A stretch of 64,000 bases of DNA, from contig CAWCYI010000004.1 in the NCBI GenBank assembly GCA_963799845.1, forward strand, positions 2,016,001 to 2,080,000, read 5' to 3'. The stretch is from an uncultured Nitrososphaerota archaeon. Its GTDB lineage: Archaea > Thermoproteota > Nitrososphaeria > Nitrososphaerales > CADDZS01. The position numbers and the translations under genes were made by a program. Shown one piece after another: positions 25,570 to 44,502 of this stretch. Below the pieces are notes generated by a model. It was not told where the DNA came from, made no database searches, and was given only the letters and a program-made list of their open reading frames with translations. The first letter of the stretch is position 1. Each line of letters begins with the position of its first letter.

Positions 25570-26358
25570 ATGCCGAAGTTCTTCCTAGTCGGTAGTGCCG
25601 GTCAAAGCCGCCACCACTTTGAACAGCGTTCTCAGCGAAAGCAAAGGAAAGCTACCGCTAGGAGATCCTCGGTAGTCAAAAAGAAATCCCGAGCCGTCGA
25701 GCGTCCAGTTCCCAAGAAGATCGAAAAGCGGGAAATGGAAGCTAAGGCAGTAGCTCAAGTTGTTTCGCAAAGACCACCCCTTGGGGCGCACACGGTTGAT
25801 ATTACTCAGGACGTTGCCAGGGCGATTGAGAATTCTAAATTTGGTCCGCTGATCAAAGCGCGAGAAGCTGCGGCAAAGTCAGCCCCAACAAATGAGCAGA
25901 TCATTCGATTTCCAAACAGACCCAGGCCGAGGCCGCCTAGTCGCCCGTACAATTCGATCCAAACTCAGAAGGAAGCTGCTGCGGTCAGAGAGCAGAAGAA
26001 AGAGACTAGAGAGCTTATCAAAGAATTTCCAGACCTGAATTCAAAGGAAAAAGATCTCATCAAGAAAGCTGGACTTGTCGGCGTTGGAAAACCGAAAGTC
26101 TCGATCAGCAAACCCGACTCTACAATAGTGGTGCAGCAAAAGGTCGTTCAGACTCCGACGACGAGCAGTGGGCATGATACGGGTTGGGATCTCGTGGGGA
26201 AAGTTCCTTCATCCAGCGGCCACGGAGATTACGAGATTAAGATCAATCGGAACACGGGAAGATTAGGCTGTTCTTGTCCGCGATACAAATTCAGCGGTAT
26301 GCAGAGCTGCAAACACACGGAAGCGTACCAAGCGAACCCAGAAGCCTATAAGGTCTAA
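25570..26358 (+). CDS. Leader-tagged basic protein with C-terminal SWIM-type Zn finger
   Basis: MPKFFLV...RHHF leader; SSSGHGDYEI...GCSCPRYKF...SCKH. Confidence 0.8.
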   Translation: MPKFFLVGSAGQSRHHFEQRSQRKQRKATARRSSVVKKKSRAVERPVPKKIEKREMEAKAVAQVVSQRPPLGAHTVDITQDVARAIENSKFGPLIKAREAAAKSAPTNEQIIRFPNRPRPRPPSRPYNSIQTQKEAAAVREQKKETRELIKEFPDLNSKEKDLIKKAGLVGVGKPKVSISKPDSTIVVQQKVVQTPTTSSGHDTGWDLVGKVPSSSGHGDYEIKINRNTGRLGCSCPRYKFSGMQSCKHTEAYQANPEAYKV

Positions 26359-26363
26359 CGCCC

Positions 26364-27497
26364 GTGCCGAAGTACTTCCTCGCGAAGCACTATCCACGCA
26401 GAGCTCCGCCAGCAAAAAAGAATCCTCGCCCTAAATTTGAGTACAAGCACGAGGAAGCCAAATACCGCGTAGATCTAAAACGCGATCTGCGAGTCCGAGG
26501 AATTCCGTTTAACAAAGAAGCCAAGACGGAGATTCTGGAAAAGGCACACGAGAGAGTTGGCGAAACCTATCCGCGTGTTACTGTGATGGGTGGGATGTTC
26601 TCAAATCTGATTACATCTCCACGCGCAATTTTGCTGGACAGAAACCTGGCGGGAAAAATCAGTTCTGTTTGTGGACATGAACGGTGGACCGAAAGATATG
26701 GTGCGAGTGCTGTATCTCACGGGCCGAGACGCTGGAAAGATCGAGAAGGTCAGGCTAGGAAATCTCAACGCTGATATGTACGACAGGACCCCGATGACGT
26801 TGAAAGAGGCGAAGGACGAGGCTGCGAAAAATCTCAAGCGATCCAAACTGGAAGCTTTCGCGAATTCACACGCAGTTACTCGTAACGAAGTGGTTGCCAT
26901 TGCAGCTGAAGATGAGGAAAGATCTTCACGCCTCTCCAGATGGGCTGCAAGTGATGAGCCACGGTCTAATGAAAGACAGCGACCTTCAAATCACAGTCAA
27001 GATGCCCGAGGGAAAACGGATCTCCCAGAATCAAGTGAAAGAGGCGATCCGCAACGCTGGATACAAAGGCGAGATGGAAACTTTCCTCTTGGGCCGCGTG
27101 ATTGAGGTCAGGTTCATAGTACCGGGTCAGGATAAGGCGCGTGAAGAACTGGAAAAGATTGAGGCAGAGGAAGAACGGAAATCTCGAAATGATCTGGCGC
27201 GTCGAAGTCGGCAGGACAGAAAAAGCCGACCTGCTTCGAGAGGATTTGAAGAAACGGAATCTCCCAGGAGCTTTCATCTTGGGATACGACGATGCGGTTC
27301 GCAGCACGGATCCTAACAACGTCAATTACGACAAATCATTCGACGCGAGCAAGCCAGAGGAAATGTCACAGCGAATCATAAACAGTTTTGGTGATCCGAA
27401 ATTGCAGACCAAGCAGTACGCTGATGGAGTCAGAGCCTTCGTGAAAGCGAAGAAAGAAGGAAAGGACGTTTCAAAACCGTTGGACTGGTTACTATGA
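26364..27497 (+). CDS. Leader-tagged protein, probably one gene broken by several frameshifts
   Basis: MPKYFLAKHYPRR start; staggered ORFs at 26364, 26671, 26894 and 27141. Confidence 0.55.
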
Positions 27498-27577
27498 AAA
27501 AAATTAGAAGATCTGTGACAATCACTGACAAAAAATCAAATTCCATCCTGAAGCTTTGTAAAAGCACCAGCCGAGTT

Positions 27578-30302: not shown

Positions 30303-30809
30303 CTAGCAGAATCCAAAGTAGTCTGAGGATTCAGAATTTTCTCGTAATTTACATCGCTCATCAAGAATAGTTGCCCCTGTTCGGCCATGTCCACGATCAG
30401 CTCGAGCTCCCTTCGGCAACAAGTACTCATCAATATCCTCGGGATTGATCTTCTCGTCAGGATTGTTGTCGTCCTCTGTCAGATACCATTCAACACCGTC
30501 GCGAGTAGCCAGCCACAAAACTTTCGCGTCAGGTCCGAATCGTTTTTCGATCTCAACAAAAATATCTGCGAGTTTGGAATTCTTCCGCATCCCCCGGTTC
30601 TCCGCAATCTCGCCCCTCTCGTCGTTGTGCAGCTCTTTGATTTCATGGGTGATAACTTCTTCCGAGTTTCTGTATCCCTCGCCGTACGCTGTCTCTGTGC
30701 GGTATCCCTTCATCGCAGAGAGAATTTCGCGAGCTTCCTTCGTGCGTTCAGGAATTCGGATCTTGTGTGCAGCTCGCTTCGGTCCGCGCTGCGGATAATG
30801 CTTACTCAA
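30303..30809 (-). CDS. Leader-tagged hypothetical protein
   Basis: MSKHYPQR; TTG start overlaps the upstream TGA; C-terminus may be frameshifted. Confidence 0.7.
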   Translation of the reverse strand: MSKHYPQRGPKRAAHKIRIPERTKEAREILSAMKGYRTETAYGEGYRNSEEVITHEIKELHNDERGEIAENRGMRKNSKLADIFVEIEKRFGPDAKVLWLATRDGVEWYLTEDDNNPDEKINPEDIDEYLLPKGARADRGHGRTGATILDERCKLRENSESSDYFGFC

Positions 30810-30982
30810 AGAGAATCTTCGAGATCGTCGCCGCTTTCCAGCCTGTCGCTCGTCGAGAATTTAGCTTCCAGTTCCTCGGGCGGTTCCCGATCCTCGCTGG
30901 GCTTCCTCTTGTGCGATTTGCCGAAATGCGGTCGTTTAGATTTGCCACTAGCCGTTCTGTTTGGATAGTGGCGGCTCGGCAT
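30806..30982 (-). CDS. Leader-tagged 58-aa protein (not in ORF track)
   Basis: Manual translation MPSRHYPNRTASGKSKRPHFGKSHKRKPSEDREPPEELEAKFSTSDRLESGDDLEDSL. Confidence 0.7.
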   Translation of the reverse strand: MPSRHYPNRTASGKSKRPHFGKSHKRKPSEDREPPEELEAKFSTSDRLESGDDLEDSL

Positions 30983-30984
30983 GT

Positions 30985-31290
30985 CTATCGCCCAAGCGAT
31001 CTGACGTAACTTTCGTCCACTTTTGCAGTGGCTAGAATATCTCGTCCTTTGTTTCTGTGCCAGACGACCAAGTTGTTCAATGCGTGGATAACTGCACCTG
31101 AGCCGTGTCTTTCGACGGCCATTCGCAGGGCAGCTTCCCTTTCGCCTCTGGACAGATCGACATGGTATCCCTCATCTGTCAGGATCCCTGGGTGGACCCG
31201 AGGAATTCTAATCTTCGGCTTTCTCGTACCACGGGCACGGCCTCTCGACCGCGATTTAACGGTACGTTGCGGGTAATGTTTCTGAGACAA
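30985..31290 (-). CDS. Leader-tagged DUF5771-like small basic protein
   Basis: MSQKHYPQR; 'GILTDEGYH...EREAALRMAVERHG...VIHALNNL...D.SYV' resembles the DUF5771 pattern, by eye. Confidence 0.6.
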   Translation of the reverse strand: MSQKHYPQRTVKSRSRGRARGTRKPKIRIPRVHPGILTDEGYHVDLSRGEREAALRMAVERHGSGAVIHALNNLVVWHRNKGRDILATAKVDESYVRSLGR

Positions 31291-31324
31291 TTCCGTCCAA
31301 TTCTAAAAACACTTTTTCTAGTGC

Positions 31325-31894
31325 ATGGCCAAGAATCCTCGGCATCATTTCTACCTCGCGAAAGTTGGGAAGAAAACTCGATCTCCCAAGCCCAAACCGA
31401 GAGCGAAAAAGAAACCCAGAGCAGTAGAGCCATTTGTATCGGGCGTGAAGGAACTGCGGGAAGAATTCCCGCAGGCGACGATCATCACTGCTAACGGGAT
31501 TTCGACCCCGCCAGAACACGGGATCGAACATTATCAGAAAAGACCTGAACCCGATCTGACGCTGAAAGACCTCGGCCAATATTACGGATCGCAGGAATGG
31601 CAACGGGACCGTCTGACTGGCGTACTTCTAACTGATGGAGTCCGCTACATCATGGAGAACGGGTACGGCTGGTTTGTCTCCGATGCACTTCCAGTATTGA
31701 AAGAAAACGAGGCGAAAGGCGAGGCGTTCCAAGTCGTCGAATTGAAGTTGGGCCCAGGCAAAACAGCTGATCTGACAATCGGTGATGGAAATAATCACCA
31801 GCTCTACAAGAAACACATCAACTACACGGACGCGAAGGCGAAGCCCAAACTCTACTTTACTGATAATGTATTGATGCTCGCTGGCGAGTATTAG
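31325..31894 (+). CDS. Leader-tagged DUF6876-like protein
   Basis: RHHFYLAK leader; DLGQYYGS..LTDGVRY..GWF..FQV..DGN..INYTD..VLMLAGEY. Confidence 0.8.
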   Translation: MAKNPRHHFYLAKVGKKTRSPKPKPRAKKKPRAVEPFVSGVKELREEFPQATIITANGISTPPEHGIEHYQKRPEPDLTLKDLGQYYGSQEWQRDRLTGVLLTDGVRYIMENGYGWFVSDALPVLKENEAKGEAFQVVELKLGPGKTADLTIGDGNNHQLYKKHINYTDAKAKPKLYFTDNVLMLAGEY

Positions 31895-31910
31895 GGCAAC
31901 GGTCTAGCCT

Positions 31911-32348
31911 TTGGCGCGTAAGCACTATCCTTCGCGCCGTCCACGCGCCAGAAGATCAAGAAAGAATCCACTCTACACGGAATCAATCAATCGATTCCGT
32001 ATAATTCCCAAGTGGACAGGTGAGCCAGCTCGCGAAGTACTCGCGAGGATTTACGTTGATTATGAATATGGCGGTGTTTCTGATGAAAAAGGCAACAGCA
32101 TCGCCGTTTTCAATTTTGGAGAACATGGTAAGAAACGGATCAACCTGACTTATTTCGGGCTTGTCGATGGGGTTCCCAGAAGAGCTGGGATCGGTAAGAG
32201 GGCCTTTGAGAATCTTGAGGACCACTTCCACGATCAGGGATTCACGAGAATCACTCTGCAAAATGTGATCGCGTCGGCCGAACCGTTCTGGAAGTACATG
32301 GGTTTCAGTCCAACACAGAAACCGCACGAATGGGCGAAGGAAATCTAA
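31911..32348 (+). CDS. Leader-tagged GNAT acetyltransferase
   Basis: MARKHYPSRR; RRAGIGKRAF (acetyl-CoA motif), AEPFWKYMGF. Confidence 0.85.
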   Translation: MARKHYPSRRPRARRSRKNPLYTESINRFRIIPKWTGEPAREVLARIYVDYEYGGVSDEKGNSIAVFNFGEHGKKRINLTYFGLVDGVPRRAGIGKRAFENLEDHFHDQGFTRITLQNVIASAEPFWKYMGFSPTQKPHEWAKEI

Positions 32349-32597
32349 TTGCCACCACATCATTATCCCAAAAAACGAGGCGGCCAGATCCCGAGACGGA
32401 ATGGATTCCCACGGAAGGAGAACGACGGGGAGGGAATGGCTGGTTTTGCTGCACAAAGAATGATCAAAGGGTACATGGAAAGACGGGACTATTCGGTACT
32501 ATCCGACAGTCCACTTTTGGTCCGCAGGCAATTCCACGATATTGACGTGGAAGCTTCATTCGATCCAATAAAGAACGAATTGGTAGTAACAGCCTAG
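32349..32597 (+). CDS. Leader-tagged small protein
   Basis: MPPHHYPKKR; abuts the upstream stop. Confidence 0.65.
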   Translation: MPPHHYPKKRGGQIPRRNGFPRKENDGEGMAGFAAQRMIKGYMERRDYSVLSDSPLLVRRQFHDIDVEASFDPIKNELVVTA

Positions 32598-32713: not shown

Positions 32714-33106
32714 ATGTCTCACCAGTACACTAACCGCCGCAGCACTCGGTATCGTCCTGGAGTACGGAAGATTCTCAAAGAGATCGAGGCTCGCGCGGCT
32801 CGCGAGGCTATCTCGCGCCACAAAGCTGAGAAAGCCAAACTAGCTGAAAAACTATCTGAGACGGCCTTTAGGCAAAAAGTAGCTGCGCTGAAAACGCTCA
32901 TCGCGAAAGATGCGAAGTTCCGAGAACCACTAACGAATACTGCGGGATTCGAGACTCCTGAATTTTTCGCTGCTTTAAACACGCGAGCTATCGTCAGAAA
33001 GCGGGTCTACACATTGATCCACGAGCTGCAAGAGTCCGCGCCAGAATTTGACTGGACCGCCATTCAGCGGGCTTTTCTGATCATAGATCGCGAACAAAGA
33101 AAGTAG
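32714..33106 (+). CDS. Leader-tagged helical protein (variant leader)
   Basis: MSHQYTNRR. Confidence 0.65.
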   Translation: MSHQYTNRRSTRYRPGVRKILKEIEARAAREAISRHKAEKAKLAEKLSETAFRQKVAALKTLIAKDAKFREPLTNTAGFETPEFFAALNTRAIVRKRVYTLIHELQESAPEFDWTAIQRAFLIIDREQRK

Positions 33107-33126: not shown

Positions 33127-33144
33127 TAAGAGAAAAAGGAAATT

Positions 33145-33657
33145 CTACATCGTCGGGCTAGTGTTCACGGGTTTGGGCGGGAAAATAGTGGCAGAGAGAC
33201 GCGGCCAAAATTTCTCGTGATCTTCATATTTTGCATCATTCCAGCCTGGGTACTCTTTCTTGAGCGCGTCGAGGACGCTGTTCCAAGCCTCGGGTGTAAA
33301 GTGATGAGATCCGTGGACATACCGCCAGTTATCTCGCTTGTATTTTGGTAGCAGAGCTTCTACTGATTCCGAGGAAGGTCCATCGACCCATCTCACGTCG
33401 ATACTCTCGCCGCCAGAGTATTGATCAATGCGTACTGAGGACGACGCATCGGGAAACATTTCTTTCAACTCTACTCTCAGGACTTTTGCAGCATCCTGGA
33501 CAGGCATCTCTTTGAGATCCTTTTCGGAGTACCTAGAGGGAATTATTTTTGGTACTTTCTTCCGTTCATTCCTCTCGATACGGGGCGCACCGCCAGTCGA
33601 TCTTCTGTAATTTAGTACCCGATCATGGGGCTGCCGTCTCGGATAATGCTGCGCCAT
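33145..33657 (-). CDS. Leader-tagged LPD29-like (large polyvalent protein domain) protein
   Basis: MAQHYPRR; AAKVLRVELKEMFP...SVRIDQYSGGESIDVRWVDGPS. Confidence 0.8.
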   Translation of the reverse strand: MAQHYPRRQPHDRVLNYRRSTGGAPRIERNERKKVPKIIPSRYSEKDLKEMPVQDAAKVLRVELKEMFPDASSSVRIDQYSGGESIDVRWVDGPSSESVEALLPKYKRDNWRYVHGSHHFTPEAWNSVLDALKKEYPGWNDAKYEDHEKFWPRLSATIFPPKPVNTSPTM

Positions 33658-34412: not shown

Positions 34413-35141
34413 TTAGGCTCTTTCTTCTTCGCCGCGTGTTTCTGTCTCAGCTAATTCCTCGGTGGACCGCTGTTGAGAAAGGTGTGGCTGCGCGGGCGGT
34501 CTTGCTACGAAGGCATTGGACGAGAGACGTTGCGCCCAATTCTGCCAGCTTGCGGGATCCACGTCCTTCGGGTTGATCCTAGCATTGACGTACACGATTT
34601 TATTGCCCTGTTCATCCTCGGAAGCTAAAGGCAACGAATCGCCGCCAGGAACAGAGGCTGCTGGAAACATGGCTCTAAAGTAGACCATTCCATCGTCGCT
34701 GCCGATTCTCATCTGATCGGTGTACTGGTATCCGACAGTGATCCCACTCGATTCAGGAAAAAACCATTGGCCATCAGGAGCTTGGATCGCGTACAGGAAT
34801 CGCTTGTCGTTTGGCGAGCCATCCTCGTTGGTAACTTTTGGACTCAAAAGAAACGAAGATCTGAGATCGCCTAACGACTCAAACATGCTTTCGAGAACCA
34901 CGGCGGCCCTAACCTTTTCCACGTCCATCTCGGGATTCTTTTGCAGCTCTTCGTCAAGATGCCCCATATTCGACTCCATCTTTTGCTGAAACACTCCGAG
35001 AGTAGAATTTGAGTTAGAAGCTGGCGGCAACGGTCTTTCGTTATCCGCAAAGTCTTGGGGTGGCAGCAGAGGCATACGGGGCCCTGGTGCGGTCTTTGGT
35101 TTCTTCTGGGAATAGTGGTGGGTGGGCGTTTCGCTCATCAA
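34413..35141 (-). CDS. Leader-tagged hypothetical protein
   Basis: MSETPTHHYSQKKPK. Confidence 0.7.
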   Translation of the reverse strand: MMSETPTHHYSQKKPKTAPGPRMPLLPPQDFADNERPLPPASNSNSTLGVFQQKMESNMGHLDEELQKNPEMDVEKVRAAVVLESMFESLGDLRSSFLLSPKVTNEDGSPNDKRFLYAIQAPDGQWFFPESSGITVGYQYTDQMRIGSDDGMVYFRAMFPAASVPGGDSLPLASEDEQGNKIVYVNARINPKDVDPASWQNWAQRLSSNAFVARPPAQPHLSQQRSTEELAETETRGEEERA

Positions 35142-35359
35142 CGTCGCCGATCTGGTGGACTCTTGGCTATGTGTTCCATTGCCTCGGCTTTATCTTTCAG
35201 CGTTCCGCCGTTCCTGATAATATCTCGCTCGGTTCCGAACACGTAAGCTCCCGCCCTTTTCTTTCCAATCGTTTTTGTGGCACTCGCGAGAGCTCTATTT
35301 CGGATCTGGCGATACTTCGTCATATTCAATCGCCCGCCGTAGTGGTGGCCACTTGGCAT
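35138..35359 (-). CDS. Leader-tagged small basic protein
   Basis: Likely start MPSGHHYGGR at 35359, after TTTTCCTTTTTCCTCT. Confidence 0.65.
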   Translation of the reverse strand: MPSGHHYGGRLNMTKYRQIRNRALASATKTIGKKRAGAYVFGTERDIIRNGGTLKDKAEAMEHIAKSPPDRRR

Positions 35360-35958: not shown

Positions 35959-36243
35959 ATCTAAATAGACAGCGCGAGAGCGCGTTCTAACTGTCGTAGA
36001 TAATCCAAAGCCTTCTCATCCTCGGTATGCGAGCGAAAAGTCTTGAGATGAGTTTCGCAGATCACATCGTCACCAGCGAGCCAGTTCAGGAATCTGGATA
36101 ACAGACTTTCCATGAGAGTAAAAGGGAATTTACTCGATCTTCTTGAAATTCCCGTACTTCGCCATCTGCTCGTTGATGTACTTCACTAGATAATCCCGAA
36201 CCTTCTGGTGAATATAACTCGGCCCACTTATGAACAAGCAAGT

Positions 36244-37104
36244 TCAGGGAGCCATAAATGCGTTGATATTTTCTCTCGCCCACATTTCAAATGTGCGACC
36301 GTGGTGTCCCGTGAGTCTCTCCACGGTATCAGAAACATATCCAAATTTGCTGCTGCGAATAGCACCAAGCGACTCAACTAGTCCGGCTACGACTTGTGGC
36401 CCAAGACCCATTCTCGCCATCGGTTCTGCCGCGGCGGATTCCGGTACTTCTACGTAGCGGATAGATCTGCCCGTTGCTTTGGACAAAACATTGACCATGT
36501 CGGCGATTGTTAGAGACTCGGGGCCGGTGACATCGTAAGCGTGCCCTAGGTGTCCCGGTTCCGTCAGCACTATCTTTGCAACAGCTGCTATATCGTGTGG
36601 ATCCACCGGGGAAACTCGTCCCTTCCCGCCTGGAAAGAACACGGTATTCTGTTTCTGTATGTTTCTCGCCCACCACTGTATTGTGTTCGACATCATCATG
36701 TTGGGTCGGAGATGTGTCCAGGCGAGACCACTCGCCTCGATGCTCTTTTCATCTTCTCTGTGCCACTTCCCCGGGCCTATCGGCGGGACAGCCCCGGCTT
36801 CAATCGTCGACTGCCTTACGACGTGTTCTACGCCAGCTTCCTTTGCGGCTGCAATCAGGTTTGGTAGCTGGACTGAGCCAAATGTGATGGCGTATACTCC
36901 ACTCACACCATCCATGATTCCGCTTAGTGTTTCTGCTTTCTCCAGGTCGCAAACTCTTACATCAGCACGTCTGTCAATTAATTCTCTCCTAACTGAATCT
37001 CGCGTCAGCGCCCTAACATTCACACCCGAATCTAAGAGTTGGGGCACAAGTTCCTTCCCAACGTTTCCTGTCGAACCAGTCACAAGAATTACTTTCTTTG
37101 CCAC
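36244..37104 (-). CDS. NmrA-like atypical SDR oxidoreductase
   Basis: ILVTGSTGNVG Rossmann motif, WTHLRPN, VDPHDIA, YDVTGPESLT. Confidence 0.92.
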   Translation of the reverse strand: MAKKVILVTGSTGNVGKELVPQLLDSGVNVRALTRDSVRRELIDRRADVRVCDLEKAETLSGIMDGVSGVYAITFGSVQLPNLIAAAKEAGVEHVVRQSTIEAGAVPPIGPGKWHREDEKSIEASGLAWTHLRPNMMMSNTIQWWARNIQKQNTVFFPGGKGRVSPVDPHDIAAVAKIVLTEPGHLGHAYDVTGPESLTIADMVNVLSKATGRSIRYVEVPESAAAEPMARMGLGPQVVAGLVESLGAIRSSKFGYVSDTVERLTGHHGRTFEMWARENINAFMAP

Positions 37105-37452
37105 TGAAAACTTCCCATCAATACTGTAACTATAGAAACGTTAAAGCTTTATTGCTTATGCTTTATCCGTGTCTATTACCATTAACTATGCCTGACGATA
37201 CTGAATGGGATAGATTGGTTATTCGTTTGTACCCGATGAAGCGTTGGCAAGCATTTCTTTTCCTCGGACAAGTTGCAAGACTAAAATTACCGTAGTTGTT
37301 CCACGAGATGAAGGGTCGAACAATATCCTGATTGGCAATGATTATATGAAAAAGACTGGAATGGTGGTCGGCTTTACTCGTCCAAGGATTTTCTCCTGCT
37401 CCCTTCCCTCTAAGAAGGAGGATCAAATCGAAGTTTTTGAACATGATTAGAA

Positions 37453-37746
37453 CTAAAAACTTCTAAAGAGTAGCTTCGTGTTTATTTGTTCCTTGATGAA
37501 TGATGGGCTTAATTTCGTGTAATACTGCAAAATTGTCGCAGGCTTGTCTCCTGCGTTCTCGATTACAATGCTGATTGGGATGTTACTCTCAAAACTAAGC
37601 GTGATGTAGGTGTGCCTTACGCAATGCCAAGACTTTAGTTTGCTCAGAATCCGGCCAGTCCACTTCTGAATCGTTCGTTCCACAGTCTTTGAGGACATAT
37701 CAAAGAACTTTGGACTTCTCTTGTCCACTCTCTCATTTCTCGGCAT
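37453..37746 (-). pseudogene. C-terminal fragment of a tyrosine recombinase/integrase
   Basis: HCVRHTY (HxxR) and GDKPATILQYY (catalytic Tyr region); N-terminal part missing. Confidence 0.8.
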
Positions 37747-38470
37747 CTTGCAACCTTTGATCCGCCCCTGATAGTCGTTCTGTCGCTTTCACAGTTCTTA
37801 GGTACGAATAGATCTCATAAGAAACTATAGCAATCCAAAGTATGATTGATCCGATCAGAAAACGCTCGAATAATCCGCTATAGCTGTTCGAGAAATGACG
37901 GAAGAACGGTCGTACTCCCCAGTAGAATACCATGAACAAAACTCCGATTACCGAAATGGCGAGTGCTAACTTTTTCGTAGGCTCAGGAAGTTTCACGCTT
38001 TTCAGTTGTAGAGATATCGAGAGCTCGCCGAGTGGTGCTGCGATGAATGCGATTATTCCGATCACCGTATGAATCGCCAAAGTCTTGCCTGTGGCCGGAA
38101 AAGCAGCTAACAAGAGAGCTCCGACGCCCCAGATTCCAATTGCATACAGTCCTAATCTGAACCTTCTCGAAATGGCCCCGAGCTCGGGAAGGATCTTGCC
38201 AAATGCATAAACGAAAAGAAGGGAAAAGACACCGCGATTCACGAAGTTGATCGTCATAATATACCCGTAGGGTCCTACTGCAAGCAGACTTTCGGTTTGG
38301 GATATTGGACTATAGTGAGGCGGGAGCAACTGAGCTATGGCGACGAGCGCCACGTAGAGAACGATAAGGAAGTCAATTAAAAGAAATATCCTTAGATCAA
38401 TTGTCTTGTTACCATGATCTTTAGCGGCCATTCTTGTCGGTCCTCCGTGGTGTGTCTTACACAATGCCAA
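37733..38470 (-). CDS. DUF998-like membrane protein
   Basis: YSPISQTESLLAVGPYG, AAFP, H, GLFERF motifs; multiple TMs. Confidence 0.8.
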   Translation of the reverse strand: MALCKTHHGGPTRMAAKDHGNKTIDLRIFLLIDFLIVLYVALVAIAQLLPPHYSPISQTESLLAVGPYGYIMTINFVNRGVFSLLFVYAFGKILPELGAISRRFRLGLYAIGIWGVGALLLAAFPATGKTLAIHTVIGIIAFIAAPLGELSISLQLKSVKLPEPTKKLALAISVIGVLFMVFYWGVRPFFRHFSNSYSGLFERFLIGSIILWIAIVSYEIYSYLRTVKATERLSGADQRLQDAEK

Positions 38471-38495
38471 GATTATGCGGATTTCAAAGTTCTTG

Positions 38496-39077
38496 TTAAA
38501 TCCGTTTACATTCTTTTAGTGCTTTGCATAATAATCGGCGACTGCCCTGAATGACTCCTTCGGTTCCCAAGGCATGTCGGGGTAAGTCTGTGATGATGTA
38601 GTATCCGTGATCCTCAAGCCCAGGGATCTTGAAGGGTTGAGAGTAGATCGCTTTCCCCTCGGGTATGAGCGCCTCTTGTTTCAGCTGATCGAAGGATTTC
38701 GATTTCTTCTCTTGAAGTGGCGGCGTGGGGATAATTGGTGGGATCTGTTTCGTTGTCTCGGGATTGAGACTGTTGATCCGATTATAGAAGGCTAGGGCCG
38801 CTGCATCTTCGTTGGGCTGCGATGGTTCCGCCTTTAGGACAGTCCTTTTCTGATCTGCTTTGAGGCCATAGACAAAATCAGTCTGCCCGTTTCGCAGATT
38901 GTCTGGATATTTCTCTACGTTCTCGGCGTAGATTTCCTTCGCGAGTTTGATCAATCTGTCCAGCGGAGTGCTTCGAGAAACTTTCTTCGGTCGTTTCGGT
39001 CGTTGCGAGTTTTTCTGCCGATGTTTATTCGGGACTAGAAAGAAGCGAGGCTTTCGATTCGGATAGTGCTTATTCAT
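38496..39077 (-). CDS. Leader-tagged hypothetical protein, possibly truncated
   Basis: MNKHYPNRKPRFFLV. Confidence 0.7.
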   Translation of the reverse strand: MNKHYPNRKPRFFLVPNKHRQKNSQRPKRPKKVSRSTPLDRLIKLAKEIYAENVEKYPDNLRNGQTDFVYGLKADQKRTVLKAEPSQPNEDAAALAFYNRINSLNPETTKQIPPIIPTPPLQEKKSKSFDQLKQEALIPEGKAIYSQPFKIPGLEDHGYYIITDLPRHALGTEGVIQGSRRLLCKALKECKRI

Positions 39078-39397
39078 CGGGCAGTATCACGCCTTCCCAA
39101 TATTCGCCGTTCTTCGTCAGGGTAACGTGGTATCCTTTCAGATGATCGATCGCACCACTTGGGCGTTCTTTGATCTTGTCGAGGCAGAGCATCACTTTGT
39201 CTGGACCGCCAACGTTGTAACCCGTATTATTCCAGAGGCCGCCGATGTAGCGTTCAGCAAAAGGATCCGCCTGTCTTGATCCGAATCTTCTTTCCTTTTC
39301 TTGGGCCATTCGATCTGAGCTCTTCCCTCGTATATCCTAAGAACTGGCTCGACCGAATTGTGCGAGTGCGATGCTTGCGCCGTGGATAGTGCTTCAA
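39070..39397 (-). CDS. Leader-tagged protein, frameshifted
   Basis: TTG at 39397 gives MKHYPRRKHRTR..., stopping after 47 aa; the downstream part lies in ORF 39070-39309. Confidence 0.55.
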
Positions 39398-40110
39398 TCA
39401 TCCTCAGCGTAGACGAGTTTTCCGAGTTTGCGATCTAGGACATAATACGTTCCGTTGCCAGTAAGGTGATACTCGCGATTGAAGTTCACGAAACGATCTT
39501 GCAGCTTGTCGGTCCTCAGCTCAAGCTCAATATCTTTGTGCCGTCCGCCGCCGCTGAATGGTTTAGTTTCTTCCTGCACCGATAAGTAAAATCGGTCTGG
39601 CGGATCCGCATCCCAGTGTACTGCACCATACTCGATTTGTAGAGCGTTGGGTGGGCTGCCGATCATCTTCGTTCCCAATCTGTAATATTCATTGTTGCCC
39701 TTTGGATCATCTCCGCGTACGACGTGGCGCAAATCAGTGTGAATGTTGTGCGGCTCGAATCCAGCTTCCAGCAAGACGTGTGGTTTGATGCTGTTCTCAA
39801 TGAATTCTTTGAAGGTCCTGCCGCGAGAAATGTGATAGAGCATTACCAGGCTCTCGAATTCTTTCCATGCTGGTAATTCTAGTGATGTTAGCTTTCTATT
39901 GATGTTAGGCTTCGCACCAAAATCGTTGTCGATAAGATCTTGGAAAGCAACCTCGTTAATGTCTAGGCCCTGTTTTTCGAGATAACCCTGATTTGCTTCG
40001 GCATATTCCCTTTTCGGTTCCTTCTTGGGTCTAACGCCGAGAAAGAAATTATTCGTGGCTTTTCGCGGTGAAGCTTTCGCAGGATAGTGCTTGCGGCCTT
40101 TCGATGCCAA
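39394..40110 (-). CDS. Leader-tagged hypothetical protein
   Basis: Likely TTG start at 40110: MASKGRKHYPAK...NNFFLGV. Confidence 0.75.
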   Translation of the reverse strand: MASKGRKHYPAKASPRKATNNFFLGVRPKKEPKREYAEANQGYLEKQGLDINEVAFQDLIDNDFGAKPNINRKLTSLELPAWKEFESLVMLYHISRGRTFKEFIENSIKPHVLLEAGFEPHNIHTDLRHVVRGDDPKGNNEYYRLGTKMIGSPPNALQIEYGAVHWDADPPDRFYLSVQEETKPFSGGGRHKDIELELRTDKLQDRFVNFNREYHLTGNGTYYVLDRKLGKLVYAEDD

Positions 40111-40148
40111 CTTGATTCCACTAGCTAGTAAAATCACTTTTTCTGTAC

Positions 40149-40475
40149 ATGGCTCGAAAGAAATCCTCTCACCACTACGGCAGCCGTCCACCGCGAGCGA
40201 GGAAGGGCGACCTATCGAGCTTCGTTCCGAAGGATAGAACGCCGCCAGCGGGTCTGCGGGCTTTCGATGCTGAACCACGGAGATTGAAGCGGGAAGGCGC
40301 AGAAGATCACCGTCTCGATTCGACACTTGGGATTTACCTGGACAATCAGGGAAGGGTCGATGATCCCGTGCTAACTCTGGACTTCGAGGAAGATGCCCAG
40401 AAGCTCAGCGATTTCCTTAGGGTTTGTCTCGGTGCTTTCTTCCGTAGTAGTGGTGAGCCATCTACGAGAGCCTAG
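40149..40475 (+). CDS. Leader-tagged hypothetical protein
   Basis: MARKKSSHHYGSR. Confidence 0.65.
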   Translation: MARKKSSHHYGSRPPRARKGDLSSFVPKDRTPPAGLRAFDAEPRRLKREGAEDHRLDSTLGIYLDNQGRVDDPVLTLDFEEDAQKLSDFLRVCLGAFFRSSGEPSTRA

Positions 40476-40996
40476 CGATAATTGTAACTTCTCAAACGCT
40501 TCGCGTCCTCGACGCTGCCAGCTCGCTGCAACGCCATATCGTATTCGGTGTCCTCGCTTACTAGGCCCGATTTCTTGGCTGCCTTCACCAATTCCATTAG
40601 GGCTGCAAGACCATTTTCAGCTGCCTCGCTGTTTGATTGCATACCGCCAGAGTGCATTTCGCCTTCCAAATTTTCCAGATACTCTTTCGCTGCCGAATAT
40701 TTGTCGTAAGAAATCGCTGGACGCGAAACAGAAGAAACGCCCATCTCTACGATCCGGTAGTGCAGATTTTCTTTCGCCCATTTCTGCTCTGCTTTATTCA
40801 GACCTGAATCCCTCAGCATATCTTCCCAGCTGTACATGCCGCTAAACTGAGAATCCATTGCATCATTGACCTTTCCAATCACATACTCTTTGTTAATCGG
40901 CTCGGGAGATCGTCTATCGGAACCTCTGCTCTTTCTCATTCTGTCCCGTCCGTGATGGGAATTCGATTTGCGGTTAGGGTACTGATGGCTCGGCAT
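40472..40996 (-). CDS. Leader-tagged hypothetical protein
   Basis: MPSHQYPNRK. Confidence 0.75.
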   Translation of the reverse strand: MPSHQYPNRKSNSHHGRDRMRKSRGSDRRSPEPINKEYVIGKVNDAMDSQFSGMYSWEDMLRDSGLNKAEQKWAKENLHYRIVEMGVSSVSRPAISYDKYSAAKEYLENLEGEMHSGGMQSNSEAAENGLAALMELVKAAKKSGLVSEDTEYDMALQRAGSVEDAKRLRSYNYR

Positions 40997-41014
40997 GATC
41001 TAAAAACACGTTTT

Positions 41015-41376
41015 CTAATCCGTTTCTTCTCTGTGCCGCATCATCTCGGCTTTCTCAAGCATCGCCACTCGCCTCTGGCCCTTTGTACTTGCAAAGTACT
41101 CTATCCTCGTGGGCTTTTCCTGTCCAAACTCCCAAGTCATGTTTGATTGCAGCAAATTCAAGTCCGACAAGTGATGTACCAGCTCTCTATCTTCCTCGGT
41201 CCTCGGAATGAAGGTCTTATTCTTCACAATGTACGCCAGCATTGCATCTTCTCTCTCTGTCGGCCCAGGTTCATCCACAAATCGCACCACTGGCGAAGAG
41301 CTCAGATTCGTAATCCTAGTGGCGCGCGCGCGCGGTTCACCGCTTTGCGATTAGGATAGTGCTGGCGGTTTCCCAC
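41015..41376 (-). CDS. Leader-tagged wHTH-like protein, frameshifted at a (CG)n tract
   Basis: MGNRQHYPNRK at 41376 is 2 nt out of frame with 41015-41290; CG repeat at about 41322-41334. Confidence 0.6.
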
Positions 41377-41401
41377 GATCTAAAAATGCGGTTTTTCTCT
41401 C

Positions 41402-42544
41402 GTGCCTCGCGGGAAATCTTCACGCCATCACTACGGAAAGCGGAGAAGATCCACGCCCGAATACACAGGGCCGTATATTCGCAGAGAACCACAGGGCGAT
41501 TATGGCAGGTATCTGGGTCGCTCGACTTCCTCACGCCGATTGAATCAGCTCCAATGGATGCGCCGAAACAAAGAAACGCTTTCCAAAATTGATGAAGAAC
41601 AGCTTGAGTATGGAGAGAAGCATATCCTAAACGATGAGGTAGAGTACGCAGTAGCGAAATTTCTCACGAGTCCACCAGGATTTGTCGCCGCTTTGAAAGC
41701 AGCAAAGGCAGAGGGGAACATGGACGAGTACTGGCGAAAACTACGGAACCAAAATTACAATTCTCGCTGGTACGATCAGGATCCCTTCAACTACACTAAC
41801 CGCAAATTACAGATTGAGGCCGATGGAAAGGGTCTGCACGTCTTTGTGAAGGGCGGTCCGAAACGGTTCATCAGCTACGAGGATATTTCCTGGAATTACG
41901 TCGATGTGGTATTTCCAGCGGACTATTACAGGAACATCTCCCAGAACATCGCGACAGGTCTGGGAGAGGCGCGGGTCAAGATTCTGGACGACCGTACAGC
42001 TGCCATCATCTCTGACGCAGAAGAATTAGACAGGATTGCGGGCGGCTATGATCAGGCTACCAAGCTGCGCCTAACTCCGAAGGGACAGCCGACCGTCGCC
42101 GACATTCTCCAACCTGGCGATACCATCGAGAGTATATTTGGAGATACCAAAACGGATCGGAAAGCCAACAGATCCGTGTACAAAGTCGTTCAGGTCAATC
42201 AGTTCAATGAATACGGTGGAATCCCAACTTGGAGTCTCGTCCTCGTGGATCCGAAACTCCCCCCGTTGAAAAACGGCGGTTACAGAGAGAACAATTACAG
42301 TGACATCAACGATCTTGTCGCTCAGGACGGAAAGATCCGCGCTCTATTCTACGCCAACGATGAGACACTGAACGTACTTAAGAAAGGGAAGCCAGCACCC
42401 GTGAAAAAATCCGAAGAACCTGCCATGTTCGCAAAGACGGTTCCAGCTCGACCGCCAAAGAAGGTCGACAAAGACCTAGAAGAGATCAAAGAATTCAACG
42501 AGTCCCATCAGGAATCCCTAGATCACTATTTCGATAGAAAGTGA
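41402..42544 (+). CDS. Leader-tagged 380-aa hypothetical protein
   Basis: MPRGKSSRHHYGKRRR. Confidence 0.8.
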   Translation: MPRGKSSRHHYGKRRRSTPEYTGPYIRREPQGDYGRYLGRSTSSRRLNQLQWMRRNKETLSKIDEEQLEYGEKHILNDEVEYAVAKFLTSPPGFVAALKAAKAEGNMDEYWRKLRNQNYNSRWYDQDPFNYTNRKLQIEADGKGLHVFVKGGPKRFISYEDISWNYVDVVFPADYYRNISQNIATGLGEARVKILDDRTAAIISDAEELDRIAGGYDQATKLRLTPKGQPTVADILQPGDTIESIFGDTKTDRKANRSVYKVVQVNQFNEYGGIPTWSLVLVDPKLPPLKNGGYRENNYSDINDLVAQDGKIRALFYANDETLNVLKKGKPAPVKKSEEPAMFAKTVPARPPKKVDKDLEEIKEFNESHQESLDHYFDRK

Positions 42545-42603
42545 TGTACTGGAAGAATGTTACCTCAGCTGCTCTATAACAGCCATTCAAATTTCGCTGC
42601 GAC

Positions 42604-42834
42604 ATGCGATCATTGGAAGTTGCGAAGCTGGTCGTTAAGCTCCGCGACAGAGAGCGAATATTCGGACAGCCCCTTATCGCTGACACTATCGCTTATCAGC
42701 CGTGTACTACTTGTGAGCGACACTCAAATTATCCAAACGTTCTTCCAGTTACAGAACATCGGAACGGGATATGCGTCATCTGTCAAGCTTCGCTAGAATT
42801 TTTCGCGCAGTATCAATTCGGCGGGCCGAGCTAG
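42604..42834 (+). CDS. Small Zn-finger protein
   Basis: CTTC...H...CVIC. Confidence 0.55.
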   Translation: MRSLEVAKLVVKLRDRERIFGQPLIADTIAYQPCTTCERHSNYPNVLPVTEHRNGICVICQASLEFFAQYQFGGPS

Positions 42835-43793
42835 CCCGTGAACAGGGATAGATCGACGTTGGGGTGTTCGTCGGTGTAGCGTTTCATATCTTGAGCTCGG
42901 TAGAACCTGACTTTCTGAGCAGCAGCAGGATTTCGCCTGTTTTCGAGGCCGATCTTCGCAGCTTCTTCTTTCATGTACCAATCCGCCTGTCGCGGTCCGT
43001 CCTCTGACCACGGGAATTCTGCAATTTTCTCTGGCTTACCGTTCCCGACCTTTCGATAGACTGTGTACGGGATCTTGAAAATGTCCTGTTCGCCAAAGGG
43101 CGCGTGATATGCCCTGAGCTAACATGCGGAATTGTGAGTCGTGCCTAGTAACAAGAAGGTGAATTCCCTCATGGATCAGGACTCCTTTCTGCTGCTCGTC
43201 GGTCAGGGTGAAGAACGAAGGATGGACCTGTAAGATCGTGTACATCGCGCGTTTGCCGTCGACCTCTCTTGAAGTGCGGATTACTCTCGCGATTGCCCGC
43301 TGCTCGGGGATTATCTGGGCCGTAAGATCTCACTGCCAGTCCTCTTGAACAGAATCGCCAGGACAACTTCCCATTTCGCGGAGAGGCCATTGATGAGAGT
43401 GTTTTCGGCATCTGTGTTTGGTTCGTACTTGAAAGCAGTATCGATTTGCTTTTCCAGATCAACAACTTTGTCTCCCAGTTTCTCGCGCTGAATGGCTTTC
43501 TTGGCGATAACTTCCTCGGCAACCTTTTGCGTTCCCTTATCGGAAATGTCTTGTAGCAGCTTGTCGAGTTTCTTCGGATCCTTTAGAGCCTTATGGACGT
43601 ACTCTTGCGCGTCCTTTCCAATTTGTTCACGCTCTTTCTCCAAGTATTGCTTATCCAGAGTCTCTTTGATCTTCGTCCCGTGTTTTTTAGGCGGTTTCCG
43701 AGAGAACGATTCCAGCGGTTTCTCGGAAGCAAGAAAGTATCCGTGTCTGGGCCGTAATTTTCGTCGCTTCACTGGATAGTGCCGCTTGGACAT
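42831..43793 (-). CDS. Leader-tagged SprT-like zincin metallopeptidase, frameshifted
   Basis: MSKRHYPV...GYFLAS leader; downstream frame has VLIHEGIHLLVTRHDSQF (HExxH...H); 3' end approximate. Confidence 0.65.
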
Positions 43794-43797
43794 TTCC

Positions 43798-44502
43798 CTA
43801 TGCCTTTAGCGATGAGAGAAACTTTCTGAGAGATTCAGTCGGCAGCTCCTTTTGGCTTACGTATGGGGCAATGGTAACAAAGCCATCTGGGCCCGAGACA
43901 ATCAGTACTTTGTGATCCGCGCCCCAATCCTTCTTACTCAAATATGAAAATGAAATCTGCGTTGGTTTTTCACTCCCTCGGTTAAGAGTTTGAATCGCTC
44001 TCAAGATGTATTCAGCCCTGATGTTAGCCCCATCGATCTCGAAGAAGGAATTCTTTTTCGCTCTCTCCCTTAGATCGCGTTTCAACGTCTCGGTGATGAG
44101 GATATTTTTCGCGACGGGTGTTTGGTCCTTTGTACCTTTGAATTTTGAAATCTCATCGGTGAATCCGATTGTCGCCTCAGTATTCGTGATCAGACCGCCG
44201 CTAAGGTAAGCAGCACCCTTCATTTGCCTTTCCAAAAGTTTCTCCGCAGTGTTGAGCTCCGCAGTGTTGAGCTTCTTGGTAACATCACCATTTGCCGCGT
44301 AGAACCTGGGTACTGCTGAATTATATTCGAGTGGTAGCGGCTTTTCGCGAAAGTGATGTTCTTCCTCTGCAACTTTGGGAACAGGTCTGGGTACTTCTCG
44401 CTTCGTCTTTGCAGCAACAGCAGCTCGGGGAAGCGATCTGTTCTTAGCTGGCTGCCGCTGCGGATAGTGCTTCGGACGAGAGCCAACGAGGAAGTACTTC
44501 AT
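43798..44502 (-). CDS. Leader-tagged protein with possible sliding-clamp-like C-terminal fold
   Basis: MKYFLVGSRPKHYPQR; 'IRAEYILRAIQTL...VLIV...VTIAP' resembles the clamp C-terminal pattern (weak). Confidence 0.65.
   Translation of the reverse strand: MKYFLVGSRPKHYPQRQPAKNRSLPRAAVAAKTKREVPRPVPKVAEEEHHFREKPLPLEYNSAVPRFYAANGDVTKKLNTAELNTAEKLLERQMKGAAYLSGGLITNTEATIGFTDEISKFKGTKDQTPVAKNILITETLKRDLRERAKKNSFFEIDGANIRAEYILRAIQTLNRGSEKPTQISFSYLSKKDWGADHKVLIVSGPDGFVTIAPYVSQKELPTESLRKFLSSLKA

What the first reader, a model, noticed from the sequence alone, without database searches (positions are those of the whole stretch)
25570..44502. Tagged cargo resembles a polyvalent protein split into single-domain genes
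Seen by motif: LPD29-like (33145), HExxH SprT-like peptidase (43036-43245 frame), GNAT (31911), SWIM finger (25570), DUF6876-like (31325) and a possible clamp-like fold (43798). Established: LPD, zincin peptidase and GNAT domains are components of the giant polyvalent proteins of phages and conjugative elements, proposed to enter the cell with the DNA and counter host defence. Inference: here each domain travels alone with its own tag, giving an exchangeable arsenal. The many unrecognised bodies are candidate new anti-defence or host-takeover effectors.
Basis: partly seen in the sequence, partly recalled or inferred. Interest (0 to 1): 0.85.

Follow-up and report, generated by a model that had tools for sequence, protein, structure and literature searches.

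The report
Leader-tagged cargo of archaeal mobile element
About 25 small, mutually unrelated genes in a mobile element of a soil archaeon all begin with the same short basic leader, which looks like a shared address label of unknown function; a few of the proteins match domains that plasmids and phages use when they invade cells.

Summary
The observation mostly holds. Their products start with one bipartite, basic, proline-rich leader: M-x(1-12)-[KRH]-H-[YF]-P-x-[RK]-x-P, then [KR]-x-[IV]-P. The bodies are unrelated to each other.

Pfam passes LPD29 (9.5e-13), DUF6876 (5e-22) and DUF5771 (1e-7). The GNAT and HExxH (WLM/SprT) calls fall below Pfam's cut-offs, but their motifs fit. SWIM is a motif only. 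The clamp-like fold could not be tested. 19 of 25 bodies match nothing.

The leader is confined to the last ~90 kb of one contig and to one other genome of the genus. Orthologues conserve it.

In other soil and peat metagenomes, single-base differences rejoin four leaders to their bodies. One of these is the zincin.

The polyvalent-protein analogy is partly supported. One true LPD domain is present, and its relatives lie mostly on conjugative plasmids. Solo LPD genes are already known, so the new thing is the shared leader.

My best reading (0.4) is that the leader is a common recognition or delivery signal for early-acting element proteins. The transfer machine is unidentified and no evidence bears on function.

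The parts
25570..26358 (+). Tagged gene, 262 aa. Leader has both the FFLV and HHF motifs. C-terminal SWIM-like CSCP-x11-CKH.
   Evidence: no Pfam hit
26364..27497 (+). Tagged gene (leader with YFLA and HYPRR). The open frame changes three times in the window; whether it is one gene was not checked.
   Evidence: not covered
30303..30809 (-). Tagged gene, 168 aa, acidic body. Other runs lack one base at 30403.
30806..30982 (-). Tagged gene, 58 aa.
30985..31290 (-). Tagged gene, 101 aa, DUF5771 body.
   Evidence: 1e-7, above cut-off
31325..31894 (+). Tagged gene, 189 aa, DUF6876 body.
   Evidence: 5e-22; solo relatives next to ParB on plasmids
31911..32348 (+). Tagged gene, 145 aa, minimal GNAT-like body.
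32349..32597 (+). Tagged gene, 82 aa.
32714..33106 (+). Gene with a degenerate leader (HQYTNRR), 130 aa. Missing from one contig of another study (joint 32605 to 33120).
33145..33657 (-). Tagged gene, 170 aa, LPD29 body. Both leader motifs are invariant in 4 orthologues.
34413..35138 (-). Tagged gene, 241 aa, orphan family F1. Paralogues lie in the sister locus and in G002. Some alleles elsewhere carry an intein.
35138..35359 (-). Tagged gene, 73 aa.
38496..39077 (-). Tagged gene, 193 aa (HYPNR plus FFLV).
39070..39397 (-). Tagged gene. Leader and 79-aa body are in different frames in the window. One contig lacks a base at 39272.
39394..40107 (-). Tagged gene, about 237 aa.
40149..40475 (+). 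Tagged gene, 108 aa.
40472..40996 (-). Tagged gene, 174 aa.
41402..42544 (+). Tagged gene, 380 aa, the largest body, no match.
42834..43793 (-). Tagged gene: leader, coiled coil and WLM/SprT-like zincin (HExxHx5HD). Split over three frames in the window; continuous if the indels seen in other runs at 43316 and 43116 are applied.
43798..44502 (-). Tagged gene, 234 aa (YFLV plus HYPQR). Clamp-like fold not shown.
44518..45662 (-). Tagged gene. Leader (45483-45662) and 273-aa body are in different frames in the window. Two runs have an extra base behind 45572.
45691..46515 (+). Tagged gene, 274 aa.
46536..46790 (-). Tagged gene, 84 aa. Differences in another run fall largely at steps of three bases.
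47084..48213 (+). Tagged gene. Leader and 293-aa body are in different frames in the window. Three runs have an extra base behind 47138.
48213..48830 (+). Tagged gene, 205 aa, the last of the array. One contig of another run diverges right after 48829.
36207..38587 (.). Untagged block inside the array: NmrA-like gene, integrase-like C-terminal fragment, DUF998. One contig of another study has 422 other letters here.
5603..25487 (.). Probable backbone of the same element: two intein-bearing P-loop ATPases, membrane and secreted proteins, winged-helix protein, ParB_N protein. Part of it is syntenic with a contig of another genus of the family.

Best explanation
Window 25.5-48.8 kb is the accessory half of an integrated mobile element of about 45 kb in a soil or peat thaumarchaeon. 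It encodes 25 mostly small proteins (58 to about 380 aa). Each has one unrelated body behind the same N-terminal leader of about 30-50 residues.

The leader is basic and proline-rich, and reads as coil in the one model made. It carries two short motifs. The first is H-[Y/F]-P-x-[R/K]-x-P within 2-13 residues of Met1, sometimes merged with or joined by [Y/F]-F-L-[A/V]. The second, [K/R]-x-[I/V]-P, lies 20-35 residues further on.

I read the leader as a shared recognition signal that gives the element's early-acting proteins one common fate. That fate is most likely hand-over to the element's transfer or packaging machine, so that they enter a new cell with the DNA. The bodies recognised so far fit this: LPD29, DUF6876, GNAT, zincin and a zinc finger, plus a DNA ligase in the sister locus.

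This is the job proposed for polyvalent proteins. Phage T4 does it with internal proteins that share an N-terminal capsid-targeting sequence (recalled). F-like plasmids do it with translocated leading-region proteins.

Shown: the shared, conserved, translated leader; unrelated bodies; the mobile-element setting; cassette-level variation.

Inferred: recognition by a machine, transfer, and any anti-defence activity.
For: **The leader is real and clustered**
- 15 of 19 strict-pattern ORFs in 4.6 Mb lie in C4:2,046,303-2,126,708.
- A profile of 25 leaders has no hit below E 0.1 elsewhere in the genome.

**Selection acts on the protein, not the DNA**
- Codons of the H-Y-P-x-R core differ at third positions, and Arg uses both CGN and AGR.
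- Both motifs are invariant in 4 LPD29 orthologues that are 60-72% identical.
- The H, Y and P of the first motif are invariant in family F1 at about 31% identity.

**Bodies are unrelated**
- BLASTP of 44 bodies without their first 35 residues gives only 5 pairs, forming 3 families. No pair lies within the window.

**Leader properties**
- Net charge is +1 to +12 (median +8) and proline is 2-25% (median 12%) in the first 40 residues.
- The first 57 residues of the one model made are coil.

**Bodies fit mobile-element early functions**
- LPD29, DUF6876 and DUF5771 pass Pfam.
- Tagged GNATs pass in the sister loci.
- A protein with a variant leader (H-H-N-P-N-R-Q-P) is an ATP-dependent DNA ligase, 1.3e-18.
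- LPD29 relatives are in 100 plasmids, 75 of them conjugative, against 2 phages.

**Link to the backbone**
- By the contig length listed for each (127,094 bases, source ENA), a tagged LPD29 orthologue and an intein-less orthologue of the backbone ATPase probably lie on one contig in another assembly.

**Cassette turnover**
- One gene is absent and one block is replaced in another study's contigs.

**Precedents**
- Solo LPDs next to T4SS or phage structural genes are proposed as early invasion helpers (PMC5512222).
- An F plasmid translocates several plasmid-encoded proteins to recipient cells (PMC8406263), at least 16 by the later account (PMC11288057) (abstract starts in the listing).
Against: - No transfer or packaging machine is identified. 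The two large ATPases match no VirB4, VirD4, FtsK or DUF87 profile in six-frame searches. Their exteins gave nothing decisive in Pfam. The fold search gave 0 matches at E<=0.001.
- No capsid, portal or terminase match appeared among the window ORFs that were scanned; not every ORF was scanned.
- Known T4SS signals are mostly C-terminal (recalled).
- 19 of 25 bodies have no match in Pfam, PHROGs, NCBIfam or PADLOC. The functional theme therefore rests on six bodies, three of them weak.
- A split-half test of the whole-leader profile generalises poorly. It recovers 4 and 3 held-out in-region ORFs at E<1, against 1 and 0 outside. Only the short motifs carry signal.
- A DNA ligase and a zinc finger fit a DNA-tethering or hub-docking leader just as well.
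- Gene callers skipped the leader in at least two database entries of the window's own proteins (P0003, P0023).
- An A/T palindrome lies only 5-6 nt before several + strand starts. The transcript 5' ends are unknown.
Confidence: 0.4

Rival explanations
1. The leader is a tether, not a ticket. It is either a basic arm that binds nucleic acid or a short docking motif for a DNA-bound hub, such as a clamp-like, ParB-like or chromatin protein. It gathers the element's enzymes on DNA inside whichever cell expresses them.
For: - Leaders carry net charge +1 to +12 (median +8) over 40 residues.
- Tagged bodies include a DNA ligase without a large DNA-binding domain, a SWIM-like zinc finger and a WLM/SprT-type peptidase. 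That peptidase family acts on DNA-protein crosslinks (recalled).
- The element encodes a ParB_N protein.
- The [YF]-F-L-[AV] motif next to basic residues recalls short clamp-binding motifs (recalled, not tested).
Against: - A non-specific arm would not need an invariant H-Y-P so near Met1.
- No hub was identified.
- The clamp-like fold of 43798 is unsupported, and that protein is itself tagged.
- Several bodies are basic on their own while others are acidic, so charge shows no common theme.
Confidence: 0.25
2. The leader is regulatory. It is a common nascent peptide or degron that couples translation or half-life of all cargo proteins to one host or element factor. Examples would be proline-rich stalling relieved by aIF5A, or recognition by a protease.
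For: - The leaders hold 2-25% proline in the first 40 residues (median 12%), often as P-x-P.
- The position is strictly N-terminal.
- Short divergent operons share an A/T palindrome, which suggests coordinated control.
- A tagged zincin could remove leaders (inference).
Against: - No factor is known.
- A bipartite motif conserved over 30-50 residues is long for a stalling peptide.
- Nothing here bears on stability.
Confidence: 0.12
3. The leader is an ordinary export signal (Sec or Tat), and the proteins are simply secreted.
For: Motifs such as R-F-F-L-V and H-Y-F-L-A-K look superficially like the twin-arginine R-R-x-F-L-K (the consensus is recalled).
Against: - By eye, no hydrophobic stretch follows in any of the 25 leaders. 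They stay basic and polar for 30-50 residues.
- Neighbouring secreted proteins of the same genome have plain N-terminal membrane anchors of a different kind.
Confidence: 0.03
4. The leader is an artefact. It is repeated promoter-proximal DNA or a chance pattern that is not part of the proteins.
For: - Gene callers skipped the leader in some database entries.
- An A/T palindrome lies close to many starts.
- The window has single-base errors or variants.
Against: - Synonymous variation occurs within conserved residues.
- Leader residues are conserved across orthologues at 31-72% identity.
- The open frame always runs from the leader into the body, or does so once the indels seen in two to four independent studies are applied.
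- Clustering is 15 of 19 against about 0.3 expected for an even spread.
Confidence: 0.03

Closest known systems
Polyvalent proteins and solo LPD proteins of phages and conjugative elements (Iyer et al. 2017, PMC5512222)
   Same: One body is a true LPD29 domain. GNAT and zincin peptidase classes are also present. The setting is a mobile element. Solo LPDs are already proposed as early invasion helpers.
   Different: There is no multidomain polypeptide; each body is a separate gene. All bodies share an N-terminal leader that the passages I read do not mention for polyvalent or solo LPD proteins. The host is an archaeon. 19 of 25 bodies are unknown.
Phage T4 internal proteins and Alt with their N-terminal capsid-targeting sequence (recalled; Alt is mentioned in PMC5512222)
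   Same: A short shared N-terminal leader sits on unrelated small proteins that are delivered with the DNA, some of them against host defence.
   Different: There is no sequence likeness. No capsid, scaffold or prohead protease was found here. Cleavage of the leader is unknown.
Leading-region proteins of conjugative plasmids, some translocated through the T4SS (PMC11541004, PMC8406263, PMC11288057; listing and abstract starts only)
   Same: It is an array of small, diverse, fast-turning-over genes at one side of a transferable element. DUF6876 and LPD29 relatives lie on plasmids.
   Different: Those proteins have no common N-terminal leader. The machine here is not a recognisable T4SS.
Effector families marked by a shared N-terminal trafficking module, such as T6SS prePAAR (PMC7773334, abstract start) and MIX, T7SS LXG and the packing signals of contractile injection systems (these recalled)
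   Same: The logic is the same: a conserved N-terminal marker with variable C-terminal bodies.
   Different: There is no homology and no such secretion system nearby. Here the marker is a disordered basic stretch with two short motifs.
Integrative-conjugative elements of Thaumarchaeota (Krupovic et al. 2019, PMC6563490)
   Same: Integrated element of tens of kb with two large ATPase genes, membrane proteins and a ParB-like gene.
   Different: The ATPases match no VirB4 or VirD4 profile here. No TFIIB match was found. No shared leader appeared in the passages of that paper that I read.

Membership tests
Polyvalent protein (Iyer et al. 2017) | 2 to 15 effector domains in one polypeptide | tested here: not met
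   Each tagged gene has one recognisable body. The longest is 380 aa.
Polyvalent protein (Iyer et al. 2017) | Contains LPD or conflict-type enzymatic domains | tested here: met
   LPD29 above the cut-off. GNAT and zincin are weak.
Polyvalent protein (Iyer et al. 2017) | Encoded next to a T4SS or a portal-terminase packaging system | tested here: inconclusive
   Two P-loop ATPases and a ParB_N gene lie nearby. There is no T4SS or terminase profile match and no fold match.
LPD29 (PF18847) | Score above Pfam's gathering cut-off | tested here: met
   49.1 bits against 27. Orthologues carry a precomputed PF18847.
DUF6876 (PF21781) | Score above Pfam's gathering cut-off | tested here: met
   78.6 bits against 27, covering profile positions 3-117 of 117.
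DUF5771 (PF19075) | Score above Pfam's gathering cut-off | tested here: met
   32.5 bits against 26.2. No phage match by tblastn.
GNAT acetyltransferase | Score above cut-off; acetyl-CoA motif A (R/Q-x-x-G-x-G/A) | tested here: inconclusive
   For window 31911 the scores are 18.8 (cut-off 20.7) and 19.7 (cut-off 23.6). Motif A is present by eye. The body is only about 105 aa. The sister-locus GNATs pass.
WLM/SprT-like zincin | Score above cut-off; HExxH plus a third ligand | tested here: inconclusive
   19.6 and 18.5 bits against 26, and 16.7 against 25.6. H-E-x-x-H-x5-H-D is present. The gene is fragmented in the window.
SWIM zinc finger (PF04434) | Profile match; CxCxnCxH | tested here: inconclusive
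   No Pfam hit at E<=1. The motif is present and its strict form is unique in the genome.
DNA sliding clamp fold | Clamp-type domain repeats shown by structure or profile | tested here: inconclusive
   No Pfam or PHROG hit. The model has pLDDT 45.9, too low for a fold search. The Atlas gave leads below 0.9 only.
Thaumarchaeal integrative-conjugative element (Krupovic et al. 2019) | VirB4/TrbE and VirD4/TraG ATPase pair | tested here: not met
   TraG-D_C, DUF87, AAA_10 and FtsK_SpoIIIE profiles hit other places in the genome, not the window. Only a weak DUF87 P-loop hit, 0.0035, and a PDB DUF87 chain at 0.0025. Inteins in both P-loops may lower the scores.
Thaumarchaeal integrative-conjugative element (Krupovic et al. 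2019) | ParB-like gene, TFIIB homologue, integrase | tested here: inconclusive
   ParB_N passes, 28.1 against 26.3. There is no TFIIB match for 19739-20398. For integrase, only a 97-aa C-terminal fragment seen by eye, without a Pfam hit.
Twin-arginine or Sec signal peptide | Hydrophobic core after the charged N-region | tested here: not met
   Leaders stay polar and basic for 30-50 residues.

The most novel reading that the evidence does not exclude
The H-Y-P-x-R leader is a new protein-sorting signal of an archaeal mobile element. It would be the first recognisable 'load me with the DNA' tag in archaea. It would mark a replaceable set of some 25 or more single-domain effectors, most of them of unknown fold, that are injected with the element to establish it and disarm the recipient. 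The tag would then serve as a ready-made search key for archaeal anti-defence and host-takeover proteins.
Probability: 0.3. Interest if true: 0.9.

Novelty: new variant of a known kind. Interest (0 to 1): 0.7.

Why it matters
Little is known about how archaeal mobile elements establish themselves in new cells, and I know of no protein-transfer signal for any archaeal element (recalled).

A short leader shared by 25 unrelated proteins gives a concrete, testable handle. Peptide pull-downs could find what reads it, and reporter fusions could show where it sends proteins. The tag also defines a list of candidate effectors, 19 of which have no known family.

If the leader is instead a DNA- or hub-tethering device, it would still show a new way in which an element organises its accessory enzymes.

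For annotation, gene callers tend to cut this leader off, and single-base errors in the assembly hide several of the genes.

Tried and rejected
- **Element boundaries.** No tRNA gene was found in the window, the downstream 58 kb or the last 240 kb of the contig. No flanking repeat longer than 12 nt was found.
- **Fold of 43798.** The single-sequence model was too poor. The Atlas gave leads under 0.9 only.
- **Identity of the backbone ATPases.**
  - PDB sequence searches found mainly the inteins.
  - Extein pieces gave nothing decisive in Pfam.
  - A model of the intein-less orthologue from a 5-row alignment had pLDDT 52.9.
  - Foldseek against the PDB gave 0 matches at E<=0.001.
- **Family F1.**
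  - It has 6 relatives and 11 among 1.84 billion representatives. One of those is a repeat protein that I take as spurious.
  - No locus was found in metagenome contigs or viral contigs.
  - Only the known G002 contig was found in genome contigs.
  - No PDB relative was found.
- **Bodies 41402 and 25570.** No PDB relative.
- **NCBIfam.** Two weak singletons among 32 pieces.
- **PADLOC.** 0 of 32.
- **Complex prediction** of the leader with the N-terminal 400 residues of the backbone ATPase family gave no verdict, score 0.00.
- **RNA.** No RNA holder is listed among the 12 runs found.
- **Whole-leader profile.** It generalises poorly in a split-half test.
- **Literature.** Four searches turned up no description of such a leader. 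Word search cannot find a motif described in other terms.
- **Rejected ideas.** A Tat or Sec signal, because there is no hydrophobic core. DNA-level repeats as the cause of the likeness, because codons differ.

Full report
**Setting**

The window is G000:C4:2,016,001-2,080,000 of a 4.6-Mb, 9-contig archaeal genome. The only related record with a title is a Thaumarchaeota MAG. The same DNA, in part, is held by 12 soil and peat metagenome runs from four studies.

**The observation**

Upstream and 5' coding DNA and two alignments give the leader:
- Met, then 1-12 residues, then [K/R/H/Q]-H-[Y/F]-P-x-[R/K]-x-P. Weaker forms have G, S, F or T in place of P.
- About half of the leaders also have [Y/F]-F-L-[A/V], placed before, merged with or after the first motif.
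- A basic, proline-rich linker follows.
- 20-35 residues on comes a second motif, [K/R]-x-[I/V]-P.

Net charge of the first 40 residues is +1 to +12, with a median of +8.

I count 25 tagged genes between 25570 and 48830.

**Is it more than chance?**

A strict pattern (start codon, 1-6 residues, H-[YF]-P-x-[RK]) finds 19 ORFs in the whole genome. Fifteen lie in C4:2,046,303-2,126,708: nine in the window and six downstream of it. An even spread would give about 0.3.

A profile of the 25 leaders has no hit below E 0.1 outside C4:2.04-2.13 Mb. It picks up further ORFs downstream of the window that were not used to build it.

A split-half test was weak. It found 4 and 3 held-out ORFs in the region at E<1, against 1 and 0 outside. 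The signal therefore sits in the short motifs, not in the whole 45 residues.

**Is it protein or DNA?**

Codons of the conserved residues differ at third positions, and Arg uses both codon families.

In four orthologues of the LPD29 gene, 60-72% identical, H-Y-P-x-R-Q-P and K-I-I-P-S-R-Y are invariant.

In family F1, at about 31% identity, the invariant columns include M1, H8, Y9, Q11 and P14.

The leader is therefore translated and under selection.

**The bodies are unrelated**

BLASTP of 44 bodies without their first 35 residues gave five pairs in three families. The set was 31 window pieces, 10 downstream and 3 from G002. All five pairs link the window, the downstream locus and G002. None links two window genes.

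**Domain calls**

| Library | Proteins or pieces scanned | Result |
|---|---|---|
| Pfam | 20 tagged or adjacent proteins | LPD29, DUF6876 and DUF5771 above the cut-offs |
| PHROGs | the same 20 proteins | LPD29 body and acetyltransferase matched; one weak hit (E 0.004) to an unnamed family |
| NCBIfam | 32 pieces | two weak singletons |
| PADLOC | 32 pieces | nothing |

- **GNAT at 31911.** It is below the cut-offs but is hit consistently on residues 85-139. Two tagged GNATs in sister loci pass.
- **HExxH ORF at 43036-43245.** It scores WLM 1e-3 and SprT-like 7e-3. It reads H-E-x-x-H-x5-H-D.
- **SWIM.** It is seen only as C-S-C-P-x11-C-K-H. The strict form is unique in the genome, and the loose form occurs in 11 of 4515 long frames.
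- **Clamp idea for 43798.** It could not be tested.

In all, 6 of 25 bodies have some assignment and 19 have none.

A downstream protein with a variant leader (H-H-N-P-N-R-Q-P) is an ATP-dependent DNA ligase.

**Frameshifts are probably assembly errors or strain variants**

In the window, five tagged genes have leader and body in different frames. I laid contigs of four runs from four studies on 30000-48900. They show single-base differences at exactly these places:

| Place | Difference in the other runs | Runs |
|---|---|---|
| behind 43316 | one extra base | 2 |
| behind 45572 | one extra base | 2 |
| behind 47138 | one extra base | 3 |
| 39272 | one base missing | 1 |
| 43116 | one base missing | 2 |
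| 30403 | one base missing | 3 |
| 42566 | one base missing | 3 |

By my reading of the frames, these differences would put leader and body in one frame for the genes at 39070-39397, 42834-43793, 44518-45662 and 47084-48213. The zincin would then be a tagged protein of about 320 aa. The stretch 26364-27497 was not covered.

**Variation**

One contig of another study joins 32605 to 33120, so it lacks gene 32714-33106. Another has 422 other letters in place of 36207-38587, which holds the NmrA-like gene, an integrase-like fragment and DUF998. This is cassette-level turnover.

**Context**

G+C is about 0.50 from 4 to 50 kb and 0.40-0.45 on both sides.

Upstream of the array lie:
- two large P-loop ATPases, each with an intein in the Walker A loop;
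- several membrane and secreted proteins;
- a ParB_N protein.

Part of this backbone is syntenic with a contig of another genus of the same family. Going by the contig length listed for each (127,094 bases), an intein-less orthologue of one ATPase and a tagged LPD29 orthologue probably share one contig in another assembly.

The ATPases could not be assigned. TraG-D_C, DUF87, AAA_10 and FtsK profiles hit elsewhere in the genome but not here. Extein pieces gave nothing. The model was poor and its fold search was empty.

The element resembles the putative integrative-conjugative elements described for Thaumarchaeota (PMC6563490, passages). It does not pass their defining test.

**Distribution**

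| Query | Genomes searched | Result |
|---|---|---|
| Leader profile | 41 relatives | 2 hit: G000 and G002 (same genus, 70% complete) |
| Leader profile | 401 genomes of the class | G000, plus one match with stop codons that I discount |
| Backbone ATPase | 41 relatives | 2 hit |
| Backbone ATPase | 401 genomes of the class | 2 hit, one of them weak |

These are samples, and many of the genomes are incomplete.

**Comparison with the known**

Relatives of the LPD29 body lie in 100 plasmid records, 75 of them conjugative, and in 2 phage records.

A Xylella plasmid has two solo LPD29 genes beside a 1495-aa zincin protein. DUF6876 relatives are solo genes, one of them next to ParB.

Iyer et al. 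state that LPDs also occur solo next to phage structural or T4SS genes. Single-domain forms are therefore not new. The common leader is.

I found no paper that describes it.

**Verdict**

- The polyvalent-protein analogy is reasonable but thinly based.
- The mechanism is open. I favour a shared recognition or delivery signal (0.4) over a DNA or hub tether (0.25) and a regulatory leader (0.12).

Noticed in passing
window 6261-9545 (-) and 10199-13387 (-): Both large P-loop ATPases of the backbone carry an intein inside the Walker A loop. The first also has a LAGLIDADG domain and two winged-helix-like repeats at its C-terminus (the repeats by eye). An intein-less orthologue of the second (791 aa, 92% identical) exists elsewhere.
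   Followed up: partly
proteins P0005 and P0006, relatives of window 34413-35138: Some alleles of the tagged orphan family F1 carry an intein with homing-endonuclease domains. It is inserted at the conserved P-E | T-S-G loop, which hints that this loop is functionally important.
   Followed up: partly
window 30403, 39272, 42566, 43116, 43316, 45572, 47138: Single-base insertions or deletions relative to contigs of two to four other studies. By eye, at least three (43316, 45572, 47138) lie in short C or G runs. The window's assembly probably has indel errors that break genes.
   Followed up: partly
window 21636, 31305, 35372, 40130, 41382, 45671 (also on the other strand near 40996, 33657): An A/T palindrome (AAAA, 3-8 bases, CTTTTTC) lies 5-25 nt before the first genes of short, often divergent operons. 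One copy is in the backbone. This is 8 pattern matches in 24 kb, against 0.067 per kb in the genome. It could be a promoter or an operator.
   Followed up: partly
L014-L016 (C4:2,080,001-2,138,642): A second, looser set of tagged genes lies downstream of the window. It includes a GNAT with a zinc ribbon, paralogues of family F1 and of a G002 tagged gene, and a DNA ligase with a variant leader. It also has a second near-identical integrase-like fragment and, by eye, a LAGLIDADG-like ORF.
   Followed up: partly
L013 (G002 contig, 1-9085): Three tagged genes in a row (GNAT, F2', F1) sit beside a 1123-aa SNF2-type helicase and a 713-aa methylase-like ORF. By eye this looks like a defence system. 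Neither was profiled.
   Followed up: no
window 677-3372 and 49047-57989: Many paralogous serine- and threonine-rich proteins with one N-terminal membrane anchor flank the element in lower-G+C DNA. Several start M-Q-T-R-Q-V-V-A-L.
   Followed up: no
G000:C4:1,542,700-1,550,430: A separate locus holds TraG-D_C (above the cut-off), weak DUF87 and AAA_10 matches. It is possibly a conventional conjugative element. No tagged genes were found there.
   Followed up: no
window 27578-29401 (-) and 29542-29985 (+): A 607-aa secreted Kelch-repeat protein and a glyoxalase-like gene (the latter matched only below Pfam's cut-off) interrupt the tagged array.
   Followed up: no
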